Source: a virus. Taken from it: a DNA stretch of 42,736 bases. The notes under the pieces were generated by a model. That model did no database searches and was not told where the DNA came from. It worked only from the letters and a program-made list of their open reading frames with translations. The translations under genes were made by a program, and so were the position numbers. Every line of letters starts with the position of its first letter. Within the stretch, counting starts at the first letter, position 1. Positions 7,540 through 28,546 of this stretch are shown here, piece by piece. Where the stretch lies: UHGV virus genome UHGV-0389216, one strand, 5' to 3'.

Positions 7540-8607
7540 TTATTGAAATTTATCTCGGATGAATTGCTGCGATGGTTTTTCAATGAATATATATGACATA
7601 TAGCTAATTGCCATTAATGTAAGCATGAATAAAATGAATACATTGGAGCTGTAAAAAAGATCGCGTCCATAGCCAATCCTGTCAGCTAAATAAACAGCAA
7701 TGATTTGCAAAGGAAAATGTAAAAGATAAGATGAATAACTGATATCACCCAACCATTCAATTTTCTTCCCAAAGTCGTTTCGCATTGCGCTAATTGATAC
7801 AAGGAAAAATATTATGGAGGTAAATCCAAATAAAATAATTGAGAATATATCTGCTACTTGCAGGATAAAAATAACTCCCCACGAGATTAATAGAAAAACA
7901 CAAGCGAAAATAAAAAATGATTTTGTGCCAATATTTTTTATGAACGCAATCGTAATTTTATAGGTCAGACCACCAATAAAGAAAGAGAATGCGCCGATCA
8001 TTATGGGATTGTTAATTTTGAAAAAGTAGTACGACAATGCAACTATTAAAATTGATATGAATGTTGTTTTTGATGTGAACTTGCATAATATAAAAAATAT
8101 CATGTACATAAGTACTTCAATCGACACGGACCATGTCGGTGCGTTGAAGGACCAACCTCGCTCAAATCCCCATGATTGAATCATCAATAAATTCAGAATG
8201 GCATGGTAAATGTCATTCATAGGATAAACAAAAAAATAATTATAACTTTTAAAGAAAATAATTTGTAATATTACCACGACAGCAAATGTAAATATATAAA
8301 GTGGATATAATCTACTGACACGGTTAACTATAAAAGTTTTTGCTGAGGTTTTATTGCTGTGTATATTGTCAGCGTATAGATAAAAAAATATGAATCCAGA
8401 AATCATAAAAAACAATTCGACAGCATATAAACCGTAATGATAAAAGACGGAAAAAAATTCATAAAAAGGTTGGCGGTTTATGATTATGTCAGATGCAGCA
8501 TTCTTTTTCATAAAAAAATGTTGCCAATGCCATAACACAACTGAAAGTGCGGCAAATCCTCTCAGAACATCTAGGGTATATATTCTTTTCCCAAAAACAT
8601 TCGTCAC
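7540..8607 (-). CDS. acyltransferase family 3 membrane protein, O-antigen acetylase-like
   Basis: 355 aa, GTG start. N-terminal LDVLRGFAALSVVLWHWQHFF motif and about 10 hydrophobic helices as in Oac/OafA-type acyltransferases; strongly AT-rich; opposite strand to tail genes. Confidence 0.75.
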   Translation of the reverse strand: MTNVFGKRIYTLDVLRGFAALSVVLWHWQHFFMKKNAASDIIINRQPFYEFFSVFYHYGLYAVELFFMISGFIFFYLYADNIHSNKTSAKTFIVNRVSRLYPLYIFTFAVVVILQIIFFKSYNYFFVYPMNDIYHAILNLLMIQSWGFERGWSFNAPTWSVSIEVLMYMIFFILCKFTSKTTFISILIVALSYYFFKINNPIMIGAFSFFIGGLTYKITIAFIKNIGTKSFFIFACVFLLISWGVIFILQVADIFSIILFGFTSIIFFLVSISAMRNDFGKKIEWLGDISYSSYLLHFPLQIIAVYLADRIGYGRDLFYSSNVFILFMLTLMAISYMSYIFIEKPSQQFIRDKFQ

Positions 8608-8849
8608 AACGAACCTCTTTTAATAAAGTCAAGTGATAATGAAAAGTAAATATTGTAAACGAAAAAACACTGGACTGGAACATATATCTCTGCCTGTAAT
8701 TTAACCAAGATAGTTTTACTAACATAATCATAATTCGTTTATATGAACACATCCCGTTTGCAAGGCATCCATTGTTATGACATTGACGGTAGGTTGCAGC
8801 TTTATATCCGGCTTTTTGCAGCCGCAAAGCTGCTAGCCCCTATGTAATT

Positions 8850-10260
8850 CGCTGACTCACACCTCATTTCCTGTGCGGGCTTTAAGCTCAAAGAATTATT
8901 CAGGTTTAGCGAGTCACGGTCTTACCTGTCGTTGTCATCACTCTGGCCGCCAGAGCAACCTTTCAGTATTCACCCTTTCATTAAAAGTTAATATTTATCG
9001 GTATCAGCGATTAATATGGTCTGATACTGACATGATTCTTGTCGTATTTACTTCCATGAGCTGCTATCGCCCATACTGTTCGTGCCAGTTTGTTTGCCAT
9101 GGCGACGATTGCCACGCTGGCTGGACGACGTTTTTTCAGTTCGGTTATCCACGGACCAGGTTCTTTGGTCAGTAATGCTGCCGCCCTTGCGCCATGAATA
9201 AACAAGGCTCGCAGATATGTATCACCACGTTTGCTTATCCCCAGCAGGCGGATTTTCCCTCCTGAGCCAGTCTGTTTGGGCACCAGACCAACATAAGCCG
9301 CGAACTCTCGCCCTGATTTAAACGCTGATGCTTCCCCCATGGTGGCCACCGCTGCCGTCGCAATAAGTGGCCCAACGCCGGGAATATCCAGCAACCGCTT
9401 ACAGGTTTCATTCTGTTTCGCCACGCTGGTAAGCTGTTTTTCAATATCCTCTATCAGTGAGTCCAGCTCATTCAGCCGGTTGTACTGGTTTTCCAGCACA
9501 GTAATGAGATACGGTGGCAGTCTCTCTTTCATCCGCTCCAGTGCTTCAGGGAACTCCCGCTCCATTGCTGCCCGACCTTTGTGAATTGTTTCACCAAATT
9601 CCAGGAGCGTGCCGTGCAGGGAGTTAATCTGCATGGTGCGGAACTTCACCAGTTGTCTGCGGGAACGATGCAGAACCAGTACCGACTGCTGTTCTTCTGT
9701 TTTGACAGCGATTTCCTTGCCGGGCTGTTGTACTGCCATCCAGATAGCCCGGGCATCCATAACATCGTTTTTATTACCCATGACGAACGCTTTAACGAAG
9801 CGGGCCTGCAACAACCGGACTTTATGACCCAGCTTTGTCAGTTCACGTGCCCAGTGCTGCGAGCCTCCACAGGCCTCCATACCAATCAGGCAGGGTTCCC
9901 GATTACAGAAGAACATCAGAAAATCCTGACGACGCAACTGCTTATCAATCACTTCACCTGTGTGCTCGTCGATGAAGTGAACCTGAATGACATGTTTTGC
10001 GATATCAACGCCAACCGGTGTATATTTCATTTGTGGAGTCTCCAGTCTGAAGGAGCTTTATGCATCCCGTATTGGGCACTATGATGCCGGAAATCTGCGA
10101 GGCTCCACACCTTCCTGTATTTCCCTTCATCTATCACTGTGCACCTTACTTAATGGGGGGGATGTGTTCATTACATTTCATGTATACCAGATGAAAGTGC
10201 ATGTTCTATGAAACAGGGTTTTGCCTGGAGTTTGAAGGGTTTTAAAGATTATACCTGTTT
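8850..10260 (-). mobile_element. IS110-family insertion sequence (boundaries approximate)
   Basis: Contains a single IS110-type transposase ORF with about 160 bp 3' and about 230 bp 5' non-coding flank. Exact ends not determinable by eye. Confidence 0.5.
9011..10030 (-). CDS. IS110-family transposase (DEDD-type)
   Basis: 339 aa starting MKYTPVGVDIAKHVIQVHFIDEHTGEV with ...GMEACGG...NDVMDARA..., the N-terminal DEDD fold pattern of IS110/IS1111 transposases; C-terminal domain follows. Confidence 0.85.
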   Translation of the reverse strand: MKYTPVGVDIAKHVIQVHFIDEHTGEVIDKQLRRQDFLMFFCNREPCLIGMEACGGSQHWARELTKLGHKVRLLQARFVKAFVMGNKNDVMDARAIWMAVQQPGKEIAVKTEEQQSVLVLHRSRRQLVKFRTMQINSLHGTLLEFGETIHKGRAAMEREFPEALERMKERLPPYLITVLENQYNRLNELDSLIEDIEKQLTSVAKQNETCKRLLDIPGVGPLIATAAVATMGEASAFKSGREFAAYVGLVPKQTGSGGKIRLLGISKRGDTYLRALFIHGARAAALLTKEPGPWITELKKRRPASVAIVAMANKLARTVWAIAAHGSKYDKNHVSIRPY

Positions 10261-11782: not shown

Positions 11783-12081
11783 CCGTATCATCATGAAAAT
11801 AAATATATTTTTATTTAATTTCACACATATCACAATTAATACAGCGTTTAGTAATTAGTAAAGACATTTCAATGGATTACCGTTAAATCATTTTAAAATC
11901 AGTAAGTTGTATCGAGTTTGTATGCTTTACTGTCATTAACTTACTGTATGTTGATCCAGTGTATTTAACCTTGATAAACTCAGTCCAGCAACACAAAACC
12001 GCAACACATTGCATTTTGTCCCGTAGAAAAGACTTGTATGTGTGAGCTTGTTTTCTGCGCCTACGCAGATAAGGATTGAGA

Positions 12082-13479
12082 ATGCCGCGCACTGTAACAC
12101 ATAATCCGGATAGCCCCAATAATGACGATGTTTTAGCCGCATCTGAAAAATGGGACGCCTGTAAACCCCCCTATACCAGCGCACACATGAAAATCTGTGT
12201 TGCTGCCGCCAAAATCATCCTCGCTGCTTCCGGCGTGGCTCGCCGTTCCAAATACGAAAAAGAGAACTATCTCCGTATCGATTTCAGCAAAGCCGGTAAG
12301 GTTACATTTTACGCCGAGTTTCCAAAAAAGATGGGCCTCAAGGGTAAAAAGCTCGGCGAGTGGCCGGAGCTCGCTATCCAGCTGGCGCGCGAAAAAGCGC
12401 TAGGTATGGCTGACTGTGGCCTGCGGGCAGAGTCCGTACATGCAGCGCTGGAAATGTACCGGGATGACCTCAAAGCCAAAGTCGCCCGGCAGAAGCTGAG
12501 CCCGGACAGTTTCACAACCTACGGGGTGCGTATCGACCGGATTAAAGCAACGTTCGGCGAGCGCGAGGTGTTCAGCGACGTAACATACAATCGGCTGGTG
12601 GAAGTGCTGGACGAGTGGATCGCTACTCGCTCGAACAATAACGCCCTGGAGTTGTTTGCCGAGCTCCGTCGGTTCTGGAAGTTCTGCGCACCTACTCTTT
12701 GCAACGGCCGCAATGTTGCCGCCAGTCTGCCAGATGATTATGTTTCCTCCCGCGTACAGAAACCTACCCCCACACGGCTTTTTACCGATATTGAATCAAT
12801 CGCCCGACTCTGGCTCAATGTTGCTGCCTGCACCTCTGTACACCAGAAGAATGCTGTTCGCTTCATGATCATCACTGGCGTTCGTCCGATTAATGTCCAT
12901 AACCTGCGCTGGGACTACGTTCACGAGGAGGCTGGTGAAATTGTTTATCCGGAAGGGGTTATCGGCATGCGAGGGGCTATGAAAACACAAAAGGCTTTCC
13001 GCCTGCCGATAACGCCTGAGATCCGGCGGATTATCGACGAGCAGAAAGCCTGGCGTGATTCAGTTCCTGAGTGCAACAGGGATTATGTATTTTTGCAGCC
13101 ACGTGATCCAATGCAGCCATTTTCAAAACGATCACTGGATAAGCTGGTGAAAACATACAGCCCGGACGGGGCTGTAAAAGGAATAAAACATGATGGGACT
13201 GTTAAAGGGAAAGACGGTGCATTTAATACGATGTGCCGTAAATTCCTTAAGAGCAATGTTATTGCCTTGATGAAGGAAAGAGGCTATTCCCGATCAGACC
13301 GAAGGGAAATCAGCCTCCTTTGCCTTCACCACTCCAGTAAGTCAGATGACCCGATGGCAGAACATTACGACTTTTCTGATGAGATTTTACAGGAAGAGAT
13401 TGCGTTAAAGCGCGAAGCTTTCGAGGCTCACGAGCGGAGCATACTTGCGCAGGTGGCATTGCTACGGCGGCGAGGTTAA
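12082..13479 (+). CDS. int: tyrosine-type site-specific integrase
   Basis: ATG 12082 preceded by AAGGA. Contains ...MIITGVRPINVHNLRW... and C-terminal ...LCLHHSSKSD...AEHY consistent with R/H/Y catalytic boxes; adjacent convergent AlpA/Xis-like gene. Confidence 0.7.
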   Translation: MPRTVTHNPDSPNNDDVLAASEKWDACKPPYTSAHMKICVAAAKIILAASGVARRSKYEKENYLRIDFSKAGKVTFYAEFPKKMGLKGKKLGEWPELAIQLAREKALGMADCGLRAESVHAALEMYRDDLKAKVARQKLSPDSFTTYGVRIDRIKATFGEREVFSDVTYNRLVEVLDEWIATRSNNNALELFAELRRFWKFCAPTLCNGRNVAASLPDDYVSSRVQKPTPTRLFTDIESIARLWLNVAACTSVHQKNAVRFMIITGVRPINVHNLRWDYVHEEAGEIVYPEGVIGMRGAMKTQKAFRLPITPEIRRIIDEQKAWRDSVPECNRDYVFLQPRDPMQPFSKRSLDKLVKTYSPDGAVKGIKHDGTVKGKDGAFNTMCRKFLKSNVIALMKERGYSRSDRREISLLCLHHSSKSDDPMAEHYDFSDEILQEEIALKREAFEAHERSILAQVALLRRRG

Positions 13480-16776: not shown

Positions 16777-17538
16777 TTACGAGGAAGCGTTAGCTATTTG
16801 AGCTTGTGTAAATTCGAAACCAGAATTTTGTAACCGTTGCACTAGACGAGGAACTGTTTCACGTACATGGTCGTTGAAATTCAGATACAAAATCCCGTTA
16901 GCATCAGAAGGCTGTTCTAGGTGCTGTTTCTGAAGGATTGCTACATTGCTGCGCCCTAAGGACGAAAGAAGCATACCCATCTCGAGTACAACGTTCTGTC
17001 TTGCGCGGGGTTGGATTTCTGCTTCACCGGCGCGCTTTGAGTATCCCATATCATCAGGTGTCAAAAGAACAATCCCGAAACGGGTAGCAGTTTGTCCTTG
17101 CCCAATTTCACGTTCAAGCTCTTCAATAATGGTGAGTCCAGTCCCTCCCGTATTCTGCAAAATGAAATGGTCTGGTAATCCAAGTTTATGAAGGATTAGC
17201 TCAAGTTGTTCCTTTGCAGTATGGTCATGGCCGTGAACAATGAATATCTTTTTGGGAAGCTCAGATGGCTGTTCTACGGCTAGTGGTGTTGCCGTGGGGG
17301 GCGTTCCTAAATGGGACATTATTGCAGTTTCAACATTGGGACGTTCTTGAGGGTTACCTTGAAACTGAATGGTCCGGGTGGTGTAAAGGTTAACAATTAC
17401 GCCATTCGTTAAACGATAGCAGTCATAAGTCTCACGCTGTTCGTGGGAAAAATTGGTGAACCCACACTCCCTCAAAAAGTCAGGAAAAGATTCTCTCGGG
17501 TATGGATAGGTGATCGGCATTTCAGTTAGTTCCTGCAT
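16777..17538 (-). CDS. TIR-like (Cap12/PycTIR-type) nucleotide-binding domain protein with unassigned N-terminal domain
   Basis: 253 aa; C-terminal domain KKIFIVHGHDH...GIVLLTPDD...RQNVVLEMGMLLSSLGRSNVAIL matches the TIR-like predicted nucleotide-binding fold signature as I recall it; N-terminal 85 aa unassigned. Confidence 0.5.
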   Translation of the reverse strand: MQELTEMPITYPYPRESFPDFLRECGFTNFSHEQRETYDCYRLTNGVIVNLYTTRTIQFQGNPQERPNVETAIMSHLGTPPTATPLAVEQPSELPKKIFIVHGHDHTAKEQLELILHKLGLPDHFILQNTGGTGLTIIEELEREIGQGQTATRFGIVLLTPDDMGYSKRAGEAEIQPRARQNVVLEMGMLLSSLGRSNVAILQKQHLEQPSDANGILYLNFNDHVRETVPRLVQRLQNSGFEFTQAQIANASS

Positions 17539-26684: not shown

Positions 26685-26836
26685 AGGTTGGTACATTTAA
26701 CTAATTGAATTTAAAGGCCAGTACCAACTGTACCAACTGTACCAACCTAATTACTAAGAACCCCATATATATATATAAGTCGCTTGGGGAAAAGGTTTGA
26801 AAAGAGCTGGTACAGGTGGGTACAGGCTGGTACAGG
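26664..26836. repeat. iteron cluster with AT-rich spacer (candidate replication origin)
   Basis: GTACCAAC three times at 9-bp spacing (26721, 26730, 26739), inverted copy GGTTGGTAC (26686-26694), (TA)n tract 26765-26777, GGTACAGG three times at 10-bp spacing (26809, 26819, 26829), inverted copy CCTGTACCA (26664-26672). Confidence 0.6.
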
Positions 26837-26964
26837 CCGAACAAGGAATTTTTTGCACATAACAGCGTGTAATAAGCGAATCGAAACTGCGTTATCCACA
26901 CCCACGGATAAACAGACGTAGTTCTCAGAAAATTTTTTCGTAGCAAAACGTAGAGGTCAGAGCT

Positions 26965-27387
26965 ATGCGTAATATTCAACAGGTTTTAGAGCGCTGGGGT
27001 GGCTGGGCAGCGAGTGAAGGTGGTAGCGTCTACTTTCCTCCTGTTGCAGCTGGGTTTAAGAATCTGCTACCCGCGACGCACTCTGGAAGGCTGAAATGCA
27101 GTGACAATGACGGTCTTATCATCAACTCCGCTATGAGCTGCCTGAAGAAAAAAGATCCGTATCTGTGCACGCTCCTTGAGTGGCATTACGTCCAGGCCAT
27201 GCCCGTGCGGACGATGGGTGAGAAGCTCGGCGTATCTCACACCCACGTTCTGAAGAGGCTTCAGGCGGCAGAGGGATTTATTGACGGTTGCTTAGCCATG
27301 CTGGATGTGGTGCTCGAAATGGATCAGTCGGTTCAGTCAAAGCCTCAGGCTATCAGGACATTGCGTAGGAGCTGCTCGGCGGCATAA
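26965..27387 (+). CDS. late-gene antiterminator Q-like protein
   Basis: 140 aa starting MRNIQQVLERWGGWAASEGG, similar as I recall to Q-type antiterminator N-termini; upstream of the lysis cassette. Confidence 0.55.
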   Translation: MRNIQQVLERWGGWAASEGGSVYFPPVAAGFKNLLPATHSGRLKCSDNDGLIINSAMSCLKKKDPYLCTLLEWHYVQAMPVRTMGEKLGVSHTHVLKRLQAAEGFIDGCLAMLDVVLEMDQSVQSKPQAIRTLRRSCSAA

Positions 27388-27418
27388 TATCCAGCAATCA
27401 ATCACGTAAGGGAACCAG

Positions 27419-27760
27419 ATGGCTCTGATCAGCGTTCGCAACAGATTTGAAAGCTTCATGGAACAGAGGTATCCAGACTTGTCGTTGCAGGTCAAAGGTA
27501 ATATTGGCGCATCAATGAAGGCTCAACTTGGCATCAGGATTGAACGAGAATTGTACAGTGAAGATGTTACTTATTGTGATTCAGCAGTTCAGTTGATGTG
27601 GACACTCTTTCAGGCAGGTGTTCTGGCCGAACGAAGAGCTACCAGCGTTACGCTTCCTGCGCTGAAGGCAAAGCCGGATAGCTTCTACGATGCGGGTTAT
27701 AACGAAGGTATTCAGGACTGTCGTAAACATCTGACGGCATCAGGCATCAAGGTAAGATAA
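27419..27760 (+). CDS. hypothetical protein
   Basis: 113-aa ORF between Q-like gene and first late-region terminator. Confidence 0.4.
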   Translation: MALISVRNRFESFMEQRYPDLSLQVKGNIGASMKAQLGIRIERELYSEDVTYCDSAVQLMWTLFQAGVLAERRATSVTLPALKAKPDSFYDAGYNEGIQDCRKHLTASGIKVR

Positions 27761-27828
27761 AAAATAGTTGTGGAATTCCAAAAAGCCGATTAGCCTAATA
27801 TCTGTTGAAAACAGTTCATCACGAAGAG

Positions 27829-27850
27829 GCTCCCGCAAGGGGGCTTTTTT
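27829..27850 (+). terminator. rho-independent terminator
   Basis: GCTCCC-GCAA-GGGGGC hairpin followed by TTTTTT. Confidence 0.6.
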
Positions 27851-28080
27851 AATGCTCTATTCTCAGTAAAAGTTAATAAAACAGGGTTTTCGTCGCGAAA
27901 AAACGCTATGCAGTTTTTGCCCTTTTTTATGCACCTTTTATTCACTCGAATTTCGCCATTCTGGACCACTTAAGTTGATTAAATAGGCCTTTCATCGCAA
28001 ATCTATTGCGAGCGGGGATCGTGTGGTTCCTATAACGTACATTATGTTAAATAACCTTCTTTTTTAACAAATTTAACAAG

Positions 28081-28103
28081 GTTCGCTATGGCGAACTTTT
28101 TTT
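28081..28103 (+). terminator. rho-independent terminator (tR'-like, before lysis genes)
   Basis: GTTCGC-TATG-GCGAAC hairpin followed by TTTTTTT, about 100 bp upstream of the holin start. Confidence 0.6.
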
Positions 28104-28204
28104 GTATTCAGGGCCCACCGAAGGACGGCTCATAACCCAATTCTACGGGCGTATACGCAGGGCCCGCCTTTCAACAACACCCCGTAATGGCGGAGGTGGG
28201 AAGT

Positions 28205-28546
28205 ATGAAAATGCACAATGCTCCTCATTCCTGGCCTGACTTACTGGAACTCTTACAAAGTTGGTGGCGTGGAGATACGCCGTTGGGCGCAGTGGTTATG
28301 TCAATTGTTATGGCTGGTTTGCGCATTGCCTATTTTGGCGGTGGCGGCGGCTGGAAACGAAAAACGCTTGAGATTTTGCTCTGTGGTGCTCTGACGCTGA
28401 CCTTTGCATCCGCTCTTGAGTATGTTGGATGGCCTAAATCGCTTTCTGTTGCCATTGGTGGTGGTGTTGGGCTGATCGGTGTCGATGCTATTCGTGGGGC
28501 TGCAATGCGAGTAATCGGTAACAAGTTTGGTGGCTCTAAGGAGTAA
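28205..28546 (+). CDS. holin (three predicted TM segments, dual-start MKM)
   Basis: GGAGG 9 nt upstream of ATG 28205; Met-Lys-Met dual start; three hydrophobic helices; immediately upstream of endolysin. The ORF-track start at 28187 has no SD. Confidence 0.7.
   Translation: MKMHNAPHSWPDLLELLQSWWRGDTPLGAVVMSIVMAGLRIAYFGGGGGWKRKTLEILLCGALTLTFASALEYVGWPKSLSVAIGGGVGLIGVDAIRGAAMRVIGNKFGGSKE

What the first reader, a model, noticed from the sequence alone, without database searches (positions are those of the whole stretch)
27761..28204. Late regulatory region with two intrinsic terminators between the Q-like gene and the holin
Two clean hairpin plus T-run terminators (27829-27850 and 28081-28103) lie in a 440-bp gene-free region upstream of the lysis cassette. 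In lambdoid phages Q modifies RNA polymerase at the late promoter to read through tR'. The second terminator is in the tR' position, implying a short 6S-like transcript starting between the two terminators; a direct repeat CAGGGCCC (28109-28116 and 28158-28165) lies just downstream.
Basis: partly seen in the sequence, partly recalled or inferred. Interest (0 to 1): 0.35.

Follow-up and report, generated by a model that had tools for sequence, protein, structure and literature searches.

The report
Plasmid-type Xer site in phage
The two terminators in the gap before the lysis genes are real, but what they bracket looks like a site of the kind small plasmids use to let the host enzymes XerC and XerD split dimers, not a lambda-style late promoter, and the same site is conserved in about a hundred related tailed-phage sequences.

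Summary
T1 (27823-27850) and T2 (28078-28103) are stable hairpin-plus-T-run terminators in a gene-free gap before a lambda-type holin. The Q gene belongs to the Q21/Q933W family.

The interpretation misses the main content. Between the terminators lies a conserved, non-coding element of about 185 bp (27868-28052). Its 3' end is a 28-bp XerC/XerD site: GGTTCCTATAA-CGTACA-TTATGTTAAAT. The XerD arm matches E. coli dif at 11 of 11 positions.

About 157 bp of phased A/T-rich DNA lies on the XerC side. A conserved box sits 100 bp upstream, which is the cer/psi architecture.

In 95 related phage loci the XerD arm is invariant, the 6-bp centre varies, and the box-to-core spacing is exactly 105, 106 or 116 bp. 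dif-hunting IS1202-family elements have inserted 5 bp from the predicted XerC arm in three independent subtypes.

The element occurs with three Q alleles (34-44% identical to the window's Q) and with a Q82-family Q. It is therefore not a Q-specific loading site.

The late promoter PR' most likely overlaps the 3' end of Q, with T1 as tR'. T2 corresponds in position to the terminator downstream of the ColE1 cer core. Function in an integrating tailed phage is inferred, not shown.

The parts
26965..27387 (+). Q antiterminator gene (140 aa), Q21/Q933W family
   Evidence: Pfam PF06530 E 8e-42. PHROG 79. About 42% identical to the Q of Stx2 phages.
27361..27388 (+). Candidate Q-proximal late promoter PR' (TTGCGT, 16-bp spacer, CATAAT) overlapping the Q stop codon. 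Inferred, not shown.
   Evidence: Read from the sequence. It sits at a similar position to PR' of Stx2 phage Sakai. The L035-type allele has TTGTGT-18-TATGGT, then TAGAAT, then its T1. No clear pause element was found in the window allele.
27419..27760 (+). ORF113, a dispensable accessory gene between Q and T1
   Evidence: No Pfam match. PHROG 343 and 37465, function unknown. Internally deleted in phage vB_EcoM-611R5 and absent from IAI1-type and L035-type prophages.
27823..27850 (+). T1, the intrinsic terminator closing the Q module. Probable tR' and upstream insulator of the Xer site. A mosaic junction lies inside it.
   Evidence: Fold dG -17.4, z -3.3. Homology with IAI1-type prophages starts at 27840. 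Each Q allele has its own T1 variant.
27868..28024 (+). Accessory sequences: 157 bp of conserved non-coding DNA on the XerC side, with A/T tracts roughly every 10 bp
   Evidence: Alignment A3 of 23 diverse copies. No consensus RNA fold on either strand. No conserved ORF. A/T-tract positions. The cer/psi architecture is described.
27925..27944 (+). Invariant box TTTTATGCACCTTTTATTCA, two 11-bp-spaced repeats, 100 bp upstream of the XerC arm. Candidate accessory-protein site.
   Evidence: Spacing to the core is exactly 105, 106 or 116 bp in 95 loci. It scores 8 of 10 against an ArcA direct-repeat pair at 100 bp. The psi site scores 9 of 10 at 96 bp. It is not a canonical ARG box.
28025..28035 (+). 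XerC-binding arm GGTTCCTATAA
   Evidence: 8 of 11 to dif GGTGCGCATAA. The family consensus GGTGCGGGTAA is 9 of 11. The inner TAA is invariant.
28036..28041 (+). Central region CGTACA (6 bp)
   Evidence: Fifteen different hexamers occur across 95 loci while both arms are conserved.
28042..28052 (+). XerD-binding arm TTATGTTAAAT
   Evidence: Identical to the XerD arm of E. coli dif. Invariant in 95 of 95 loci, although it was not part of the search pattern. It is the only such site in the window.
28043..28048 (+). Best conserved -10-like hexamer (TATGTT) inside the XerD arm. Candidate Pcer-like promoter. The window also has TATAAC at 28031-28036.
   Evidence: Weight-matrix scan over 23 copies. 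It is the best conserved -10 on the + strand, with no -35. Weak evidence only.
28060..28077 (+). Conserved T-run plus AACAAATT segment between the core and T2
   Evidence: Conserved columns 195-206 of A3. Also present in the phage-plasmid homologue.
28078..28103 (+). T2, an intrinsic terminator 26 bp downstream of the XerD arm. It corresponds in position to the hairpin-plus-T-run about 70 nt downstream of ColE1 cer, and is a second barrier before the holin.
   Evidence: Fold dG -10.4, z -3.2. The position is kept with different stems in L254, L026, L008 and the second copies. ColE1 has a hairpin-plus-T-run about 70 nt past the cer core.
28109..28165 (+). GC-rich leader.
   Evidence: Repeat confirmed. 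The fold is not significant (z -1.2). L026 has CAGGGCTC...GAGCCTG around the same motif.
28205..28546 (+). Lambda-type holin S with an MKM dual start. First late gene.
   Evidence: Pfam PF05106 E 1e-27. RefSeq start as in L002.

Best explanation
The gap is a composite of three things.

(1) T1 ends the Q transcription unit. It is most likely the tR' of a late promoter that overlaps the 3' end of Q.

(2) Positions 27868-28052 are a plasmid-type Xer recombination site. A 28-bp core (XerC arm, 6-bp centre, XerD arm) is preceded on the XerC side by about 157 bp of accessory DNA. That DNA has phased A/T tracts and a conserved box 100 bp away, as in psi of pSC101 and cer of ColE1.

By analogy, host XerC/XerD would recombine two directly repeated copies of the site, as found in a circular dimer of the phage genome, returning it to monomers. 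They would be helped by PepA and an ArgR- or ArcA-like accessory protein wrapped by the accessory DNA.

(3) T2, 26 bp past the core, would end any short transcript that starts in the core, as the Rcd RNA does at cer. It also blocks stray transcription from reaching the holin.

The site always points the same way as late transcription and lies downstream of tR'. It would therefore be untranscribed, and so able to work, until Q switches late transcription on.

Shown: the sequence anatomy, its conservation pattern, its independence from the type of Q, and its recognition by dif-targeting insertion sequences.

Inferred: XerCD activity, the identity of the accessory proteins, dimer resolution as the purpose, the roles of T1 and T2, and the position of PR'.
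For: Core site. The XerD arm matches E. coli dif at 11 of 11 positions and the XerC arm at 8 of 11 (family consensus 9 of 11). ColE1 cer and pSC101 psi cores, read from the plasmid records, have the same layout.

Conservation pattern. In 95 loci found with a pattern 100 bp away from the core, the XerD arm is invariant, the XerC arm varies at its outer positions, and there are 15 different 6-bp centres. These match the published rules for recognising Xer sites.

Accessory side. About 157 bp is conserved on the XerC side only, with phased A/T tracts (compare). The box-to-core spacing is quantised at 105, 106 or 116 bp. The box lies 100 bp from the XerC arm, against 96 bp for the psi ArcA site and 113 bp for the cer ARG box (start of box; its centre lies 106 bp away). 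There is no RNA fold and no ORF.

Independent biological support. IS1202-family 'dif-hunter' elements sit exactly 5 bp, with a 5-bp duplication, from the predicted XerC arm in three element subtypes.

Homologues. A homologous site lies next to repA and a toxin-antitoxin pair in 48-kb phage-plasmids. Second copies in relatives carry a 9-of-10 ArcA-type repeat 99 bp from the arm, followed by a terminator.

Not Q-specific. The element occurs with three PF06530 alleles and a PF06323 Q.
Against: - No experiment shows XerCD acting here.
- The window's XerC arm differs from dif at 3 of 11 positions.
- The conserved box is neither a canonical ARG box (10 of 14, which is background) nor a good ArcA site (8 of 10).
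- The phage integrates with its own integrase. All 138 E. coli copies are chromosomal. A need for dimer resolution is therefore not obvious, and resolving concatemers would work against headful packaging.
- Relatives with two directly repeated copies flanking essential genes would risk deleting them, although their central regions differ.
- Promoter evidence inside the core is weak: a -10 without a -35.
- No pause element was found at the Q-proximal PR' candidate of the window allele.
Confidence: 0.62

Rival explanations
1. The late promoter PR' and the Q-loading site lie between T1 and T2. T2 is tR', and a short 6S-like RNA runs from the promoter to T2.
For: The window has -10-like hexamers upstream of T2: TATAAC at 28031-28036 and TATGTT at 28043-48, followed by TAAATA. 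The conserved XerC-arm region would fall at -27 to -16, where Q21 binds in PR'21. The layout promoter, about 50 nt, terminator recurs in relatives.
Against: Identical DNA serves three Q alleles with different recognition helices, and a Q82-family phage. Most copies lie inside late operons with no terminator after them. TATAAC is GGTAAC in most copies. The conserved 28 bp is fully explained as a Xer core, and dif-targeting IS elements recognise it. In the related Stx2 phage, PR' overlaps the end of Q.
Confidence: 0.1
2. The Xer core is real, but its main job is regulatory. As at ColE1 cer, XerCD occupancy represses a promoter in the core. The promoter fires when sites pair in replicated, multimeric DNA. 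It then makes an Rcd-like small RNA ending at T2, or, where no terminator follows, drives TerL and portal transcription directly.
For: Pcer lies inside cer, is repressed by XerCD, is active in multimers, and reads from the accessory side outward. ColE1 has a hairpin-plus-T-run about 70 nt past the core, and the window has T2 26 bp past the core. The best conserved -10-like hexamer lies inside the invariant XerD arm. Every copy has the orientation of the late genes.
Against: There is no -35 and only a 4-of-6 match at -10. There is no similarity to Rcd and no conserved RNA fold. Invariance of the hexamer is already explained by XerD binding. Nothing shows promoter activity.
Confidence: 0.15
3. 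The site is a relic or a recombination landmark with no present function in the phage. It may have been inherited from a phage-plasmid ancestor, and now mainly marks a boundary where modules are exchanged.
For: It always sits at junctions between variable upstream DNA (Q alleles, TerS types, TerL types) and the conserved head module. Homologues exist in phage-plasmids.
Against: Arms, box and spacing are strictly conserved over about 100 diverged copies while the sequence between them drifts. That argues for ongoing selection. The mosaic junctions lie upstream of the accessory DNA, not at the core.
Confidence: 0.08
4. The site is an attP used for XerCD-mediated integration at the host dif site, as in CTX-phi and other Xer-exploiting elements.
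For: The XerD arm is identical to dif. Filamentous prophages integrate at dif by this route.
Against: In prophages the site is internal, with phage genes on both sides. The prophages lie at many chromosomal positions. The phage has its own tyrosine integrase at 12076-13479. Accessory sequences favour intramolecular events.
Confidence: 0.02

Closest known systems
psi, the multimer-resolution site of plasmid pSC101
   Same: A 28-bp core with a 6-bp centre. The XerD arm is TTATGTTAAA(C/T). Accessory DNA lies on the XerC side. A repeat box sits about 96-100 bp from the XerC arm.
   Different: It lies in a tailed, integrating phage, inside the Q-controlled late transcription unit. The window's box is only 8 of 10 to an ArcA repeat pair. 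The accessory DNA shows no sequence homology to psi. Some relatives carry two copies.
cer of ColE1, with its internal promoter Pcer and the Rcd RNA
   Same: Accessory DNA with phased A/T tracts, XerC and XerD arms, then a short stretch ending in an intrinsic terminator. Read-through transcription would enter from the accessory side.
   Different: cer has an 8-bp centre and a true ARG box. No Rcd-like sequence or fold is present here, and no promoter activity has been shown.
dif, the chromosomal XerCD site
   Same: The XerD arm is identical and the XerC arm is 8-9 of 11. The centre is 6 bp. The site is targeted by the same dif-hunting IS family.
   Different: dif has no accessory sequences and depends on FtsK at the replication terminus. 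This site has conserved accessory DNA and lies in a prophage.
Lambdoid late cassette: Q, PR', pause element, tR' and the 6S or StxS RNA
   Same: A Q gene is followed by a terminator and then by lysis genes. In the Stx2 phage a Q-family relative has PR' at the end of Q.
   Different: The real cassette is more likely the Q 3' end through T1, here with a 113-codon ORF inside it.
loxP/Cre of phage P1
   Same: A site-specific recombination site in a temperate phage that keeps circular genomes monomeric (abstract of PMC2409434).
   Different: P1 encodes its own recombinase and is a plasmid prophage. This phage would borrow host XerCD, and it integrates.

Membership tests
Xer recombination site (core) | 11-bp XerD arm close to the consensus TTATGTTAAAT, better conserved than the XerC arm | tested here: met
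   11 of 11 to E. coli dif. Invariant in 95 of 95 loci, while the XerC arm shows 12 or more variants.
Xer recombination site (core) | 11-bp XerC arm whose inner bases are conserved and palindromic to the XerD arm | tested here: met
   GGTTCCTATAA is 8 of 11 to dif. The inner TAA is invariant and mirrors TTA. Functional sites with weaker XerC arms are known, for example in R27.
Xer recombination site (core) | Central region of 6-8 bp whose sequence is not conserved | tested here: met
   6 bp, with 15 different hexamers among 95 loci.
Xer recombination site (core) | Bound and recombined by XerC and XerD | not testable with these tools
   Indirect support only: IS1202-family dif hunters inserted 5 bp from the XerC arm in three subtypes.
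Plasmid-type site with accessory sequences (cer/psi) | About 180-200 bp of accessory DNA adjacent to the XerC arm only | tested here: met
   157-175 bp conserved upstream of the XerC arm. Conservation ends about 25 bp past the XerD arm.
Plasmid-type site with accessory sequences (cer/psi) | ArgR or ArcA binding site at a defined distance from the core | tested here: inconclusive
   An invariant box sits at a fixed 100 bp (90 bp in the commoner form). It scores 8 of 10 to an ArcA repeat pair and 10 of 14 (background) to an ARG box. Second copies in relatives score 9 of 10 at 99 bp, equal to psi at 96 bp.
Plasmid-type site with accessory sequences (cer/psi) | A/T tracts phased at about 10.5 bp between the box and the core | tested here: met
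   Tracts lie about every 9-15 bp through 27868-28001. The length variants differ by exactly 10 bp (compare).
Plasmid-type site with accessory sequences (cer/psi) | PepA-dependent, intramolecular resolution of dimers | not testable with these tools
   Needs recombination assays in xerC, xerD, pepA, arcA and argR strains.
Pcer/Rcd checkpoint RNA | A promoter inside the site reading outward past the XerD arm, and a short terminated RNA | tested here: inconclusive
   T2 is in the right place. Only a weak -10 and no -35. No Rfam hit, no conserved fold, no similarity to Rcd.
   The same DNA is paired with Q proteins 34-44% identical to the window's Q, and with a Q of another family.
   The window has TATAAC, then TATGTT and TAAATA, then T2. 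In most copies TATAAC is GGTAAC and there is no terminator.
Q21/Q933W antiterminator (the protein) | Match to PF06530 across the domain | tested here: met
   E 8e-42, covering positions 1-118 of 118. Only a weak direct match to the Q21 structure (E 0.25).
Xer-exploiting integrative element (attP at dif) | The prophage is bounded by the recombined site at the host dif | tested here: not met
   The site is internal to prophages at many loci, and the phage has its own integrase.

The most novel reading that the evidence does not exclude
Tailed temperate phages have adopted a plasmid cer/psi-type Xer site as a sensor of genome multimerisation. XerCD, PepA and an accessory protein hold a promoter in the core silent on single copies. 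When replicated genomes pair their sites, the promoter fires. It then yields a short Rcd-like RNA (ending at T2) or directly boosts terminase, portal and head gene transcription. Late functions would thereby be coupled to DNA replication. Q-driven read-through would later switch resolution off so that concatemers can be packaged.
Probability: 0.12. Interest if true: 0.85.

Novelty: new variant of a known kind. Interest (0 to 1): 0.6.

Why it matters
Xer sites with accessory sequences are known from small plasmids, and bare dif-like sites from chromosomes, large replicons, filamentous phages and Acinetobacter resistance modules. I found no report, in the searched library, of a cer/psi-type site conserved inside the late transcription unit of integrating tailed phages.

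If it is active, these phages borrow a host recombinase to manage genome multimers, or to sense them. That would be a new link between replication, late transcription and packaging, and a new target class for dif-hunting insertion sequences.

Practically, it corrects the annotation of a region that looks like a textbook PR'-tR' cassette. It also gives a sequence signature (box, 105, 106 or 116 bp, 28-bp core) with which such sites can be found.

Tried and rejected
- Known RNA: no Rfam family at E up to 10, and no tRNA.
- Structured RNA: RNAalifold gave no consensus fold on either strand for 23 diverse copies. A candidate 5' hairpin showed no covariation, 68.6% paired, equal to shuffles.
- Small protein: no frame stays open across copies.
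- Strong sigma-70 promoter: only a -10 without a -35 on the + strand. A minus-strand TTGTTA-18-CATAAT is not conserved at -35.
- pac or cos site: rejected, because the element is shared by phages with unrelated TerS and TerL.
- Mu-type late promoter with a Mor/C activator: no such gene in the window.
- DnaA, CRP, IHF and ARG-box readings of the conserved box: none fits (for ARG and ArcA; the others by inspection).
- boxA-like TTTAACAA after the core: absent from the TerL-adjacent copies, so kept only as a note.
Its chance harvest of chromosomal dif and Acinetobacter pdif sites is what revealed the identity of the core.
- Klebsiella '37-42 kb plasmids' carrying the element: the one record inspected (37 kb) is a linear phage contig with an integrase, which is not evidence of a plasmid lifestyle.

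Full report
**Observation**

The interval 27761-28204 lies between a 113-codon ORF (27419-27760) and a lambda-type holin (PF05106) whose MKM dual start is at 28205.

T1 is GAAGAGGCUCCC-GCAA-GGGGGCUUUUUU (27823-27850), dG -17.4 kcal/mol, z -3.3. T2 is AAGGUUCGC-UAUG-GCGAACUUU plus a T-run (28078-28103), dG -10.4, z -3.2.

The consensus scan found only T2, and its count did not exceed shuffles. Fold energy and conservation carry the case.

The CAGGGCCC repeat is present at the stated coordinates. No tRNA, Rfam family or conserved ORF occupies the gap.

The upstream regulator (26965-27387) is a Q21/Q933W-family antiterminator (PF06530, E 8e-42). It is about 42% identical to the Q of Stx2 phages.

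**Genomic setting**

The window is a complete 42.7-kb temperate phage genome. It encodes:
- an S24 repressor and Cro, a VapE primase, family-A DNA polymerase, and an integrase;
- Q, and a lambda-like lysis cassette;
- a Mu-like head module: Phage_portal_3, Mu F, DUF2213 and a major capsid protein.

The gap is present at 95% identity or more in 138 E. coli chromosomes, and is almost always unannotated.

**A conserved element between the terminators**

Parts of the gap recur at about 70-85% identity in other prophages, in gaps between TerS and TerL or between TerL and portal.

Of 112 with enough downstream sequence, 95 carry a second block at exactly 105, 106 or 116 bp.

Using window proteins as probes, three contexts appear, always in the orientation of the late genes:
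- (a) Q, T1, element, T2, holin, as in the window;
- (b) TerS, element, TerL, with Q 6.6-6.8 kb upstream;
- (c) a different TerL, element, portal.

An alignment of 23 diverse copies shows invariant islands in drifting sequence. RNAalifold finds no consensus structure on either strand. A candidate hairpin shows no covariation. No reading frame is conserved. The element therefore acts as DNA.

**Not a Q-loading site**

From 27840 onward the window is about 98% identical to the IAI1 prophage. The IAI1 Q is only 44% identical, with a different predicted recognition helix. The junction lies inside T1.

A third allele, 34-36% identical, precedes the same element with its own T1.

A type-(c) phage has a Q of the unrelated Q82 family (PF06323), with its own promoter, terminator and tRNA region 4.5 kb upstream of the element.

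A Q-binding element cannot be shared across these. In Q21 it is a specific direct repeat between -35 and -10.

In Stx2 phage Sakai the -35 of PR' lies in the last codons of Q. Published mapping describes the promoter as closely associated with Q, with tR' 258 nt away.

Here each Q allele is followed within 25-85 nt by its own terminator. The L035 type shows TTGTGT-18-TATGGT, a TAGAAT pause-like hexamer, and then T1.

In the window allele the matching candidate is TTGCGT-16-CATAAT (27361-27388), with ORF113 inserted before T1. ORF113 is internally deleted in phage vB_EcoM-611R5. I infer that T1, not T2, is tR'. This is not proven, and I found no clear pause element for the window allele.

**Identity of the conserved block**

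A scan of bacterial genomes with TAA-N6-TTATGTTAAAT mostly returned chance hits. It also returned ...GCGCATAATGTATATTATGTTAAAT in Siccibacter, Pantoea, Vibrio and Halopseudomonas, and ATTTCGTATAAC...TTATGTTAAAT in Acinetobacter. In E. coli the same motif sits at the end of a filamentous prophage.

This is dif. E. coli dif is GGTGCGCATAA-TGTATA-TTATGTTAAAT.

| Site | XerC arm | Centre | XerD arm | Source |
|---|---|---|---|---|
| Window (28025-28052) | GGTTCCTATAA | CGTACA | TTATGTTAAAT | |
| Family consensus | GGTGCGGGTAA | CAGTCA | TTATGTTAAAT | |
| psi (pSC101 record) | GGTGCGCGCAA | GATCCA | TTATGTTAAAC | |
| cer (ColE1 record) | GGTGCGTACAA | TTAAGGGA | TTATGGTAAAT | |

Across the 95 loci the XerD arm is invariant. 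The XerC arm varies at its outer positions (7-11 of 11 to dif). The 6-bp centre takes 15 forms. These are the published criteria for a Xer site.

**Accessory side**

Plasmid sites need about 180-200 bp of accessory DNA next to the XerC arm. That DNA has an ArgR (cer) or ArcA (psi) site at a defined place, plus PepA, and phased A/T tracts.

Here 157 bp on the XerC side is conserved, with A/T tracts about every 10 bp. The length variants differ by exactly one helical turn.

Distances from the box to the XerC arm:

| Site | Box | Distance to XerC arm | Score |
|---|---|---|---|
| Window | invariant box | starts 100 bp upstream | 8 of 10 to ArcA pair |
| psi | ArcA repeat pair | starts 96 bp upstream | 9 of 10 |
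| cer | ARG box | starts 113 bp upstream (centre 106 bp) | 11 of 14 to ARG |

The window box is not an ARG box (10 of 14, which is background). The accessory protein is therefore undetermined.

Relatives carry a second copy after the Mu F gene. It has the same core (centre GAACCA), a 9-of-10 ArcA-type pair at 99 bp, and a terminator before the next gene.

**Independent support**

IS1202-family elements are described as dif hunters. They insert 5 bp from the XerC arm with a 5-bp duplication, and ISKpn21 is among them.

In Enterobacter plasmid pE76_003, which carries a window-type phage, ISKpn21 splits the element as ...gatCGCGT|TGTCAAGG...ATTACA|CGCGT|GGTGCAGATAA. The same kind of insertion occurs at the same relative position in two other element subtypes, with duplications CGGCT and TCGGT.

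A homologous site, sharing both ends of the element, lies beside repA and a toxin-antitoxin pair in 48-kb E. coli phage-plasmids.

**What the terminators do**

In ColE1 the Pcer promoter inside cer makes the short Rcd RNA. It reads from the accessory side outward. XerCD and FIS repress it, and it is active in multimers. The ColE1 record shows a hairpin-plus-T-run about 70 nt past the core.

T2 lies 26 bp past the XerD arm. Its position is kept with different stems in relatives. T2 is thus the positional counterpart of that ColE1 hairpin-plus-T-run, and a second barrier before a lethal holin gene.

Evidence for a promoter in the core is weak. TATGTT inside the XerD arm is the best conserved -10, with no -35.

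All copies lie inside Q-controlled late units, downstream of tR', with transcription entering from the accessory side. The same orientation rule is noted for ColE1-type plasmids. I infer that the site is transcriptionally quiet until Q acts, and that T1 provides that insulation in the window.

**Function and doubts**

By family membership, the expected activity is XerCD-catalysed resolution of circular dimers. Why an integrating, headful-packaging phage needs that is not clear. All E. coli copies are chromosomal. The one Klebsiella 'plasmid' record inspected is a linear phage contig.

Alternatives are a multimer-sensing promoter, a relic from a phage-plasmid ancestor, or a recombination landmark. 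An attP role at dif is excluded by prophage structure.

I found no paper in the searched library describing such sites in tailed integrating phages. That is not proof that none exists.

**Verdict**

The interesting content is a cer/psi-type Xer site bracketed by the two terminators: a new variant of a known kind.

Noticed in passing
window 26685-26964: The 280-bp gap between the VapE primase gene and Q looks like a replication origin. It has three GTACCAAC iterons (about 26721-26747), an AT-rich TATATATATATA (26766-26777), three inverted GGTACAGG iterons (about 26808-26836) and a perfect DnaA box TTATCCACA (26892-26900).
   Followed up: partly
L254 4640-6945; L030, L088, L095, L016 (viral contigs): IS1202-family insertion sequences (ISKpn21 and another) are inserted exactly 5 bp from the predicted XerC arm, with 5-bp duplications, in three different subtypes of the element. 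This family is described as targeting dif sites.
   Followed up: yes
L046 about 12740-13000; L037, L047, L059, L092 (2.4-4.3 kb downstream of the first copy): Relatives carry a second, directly oriented Xer site right after the Mu F-like gene. It has an ArcA-type repeat pair (TGTTAYNAAAATGTTG) 99 bp from the XerC arm, a different central region (GAACCA or GAACCC), and an intrinsic terminator just before the next head gene.
   Followed up: partly
window 27419-27760: ORF113 sits between Q and T1. If PR' overlaps the end of Q, it would be transcribed from PR' in lysogens. It is internally deleted in phage vB_EcoM-611R5 and absent from prophages with other Q alleles. It matches PHROG 343 and 37465, function unknown.
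   Followed up: partly
L026 has CAGGGCTC...GAGCCTG around the same motif. In L124 the motif follows a tRNA cluster, so it may be a decayed tRNA or a leader element. The fold is not significant (z -1.2).
   Followed up: partly
window 28060-28072: CTTCTTTTTTAACAAATTT, just after the Xer core, resembles the rrn boxA region (TGCTCTTTAACAATTTATC, from memory). The resemblance is absent from the TerL-adjacent copies.
   Followed up: no
window 28041-28070, minus strand: A sigma-70-like promoter TTGTTA-18-CATAAT points into the accessory DNA, with its -10 inside the invariant XerD arm. The -35 is not conserved in the TerL-adjacent copies.
   Followed up: partly
L253 3860-4070 (E. coli plasmid pHN68-3, 48.7 kb): Phage-plasmids of about 48 kb carry a homologous Xer site (GGTGCCGATAA-CGTCCA-TTATGTTAAAT) with the same 5' and 3' flanks as the element. 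It lies between repA and a RelE/ParE toxin-antitoxin pair.
   Followed up: partly
window 7540-10030 and 16777-17538: Cargo genes on the minus strand: an acyltransferase (PF01757), an IS110-family transposase (9011-10030) and a CAP12/Pycsar-type TIR effector (16777-17538) that may be an anti-phage defence gene.
   Followed up: no
L127 1978-2004 (Stx2 phage Sakai): A terminator-like hairpin with a T-run lies only about 25-50 nt downstream of the inferred PR' start. Yet published mapping puts the StxS 3' end 258 nt downstream, at the second hairpin.
   Followed up: no
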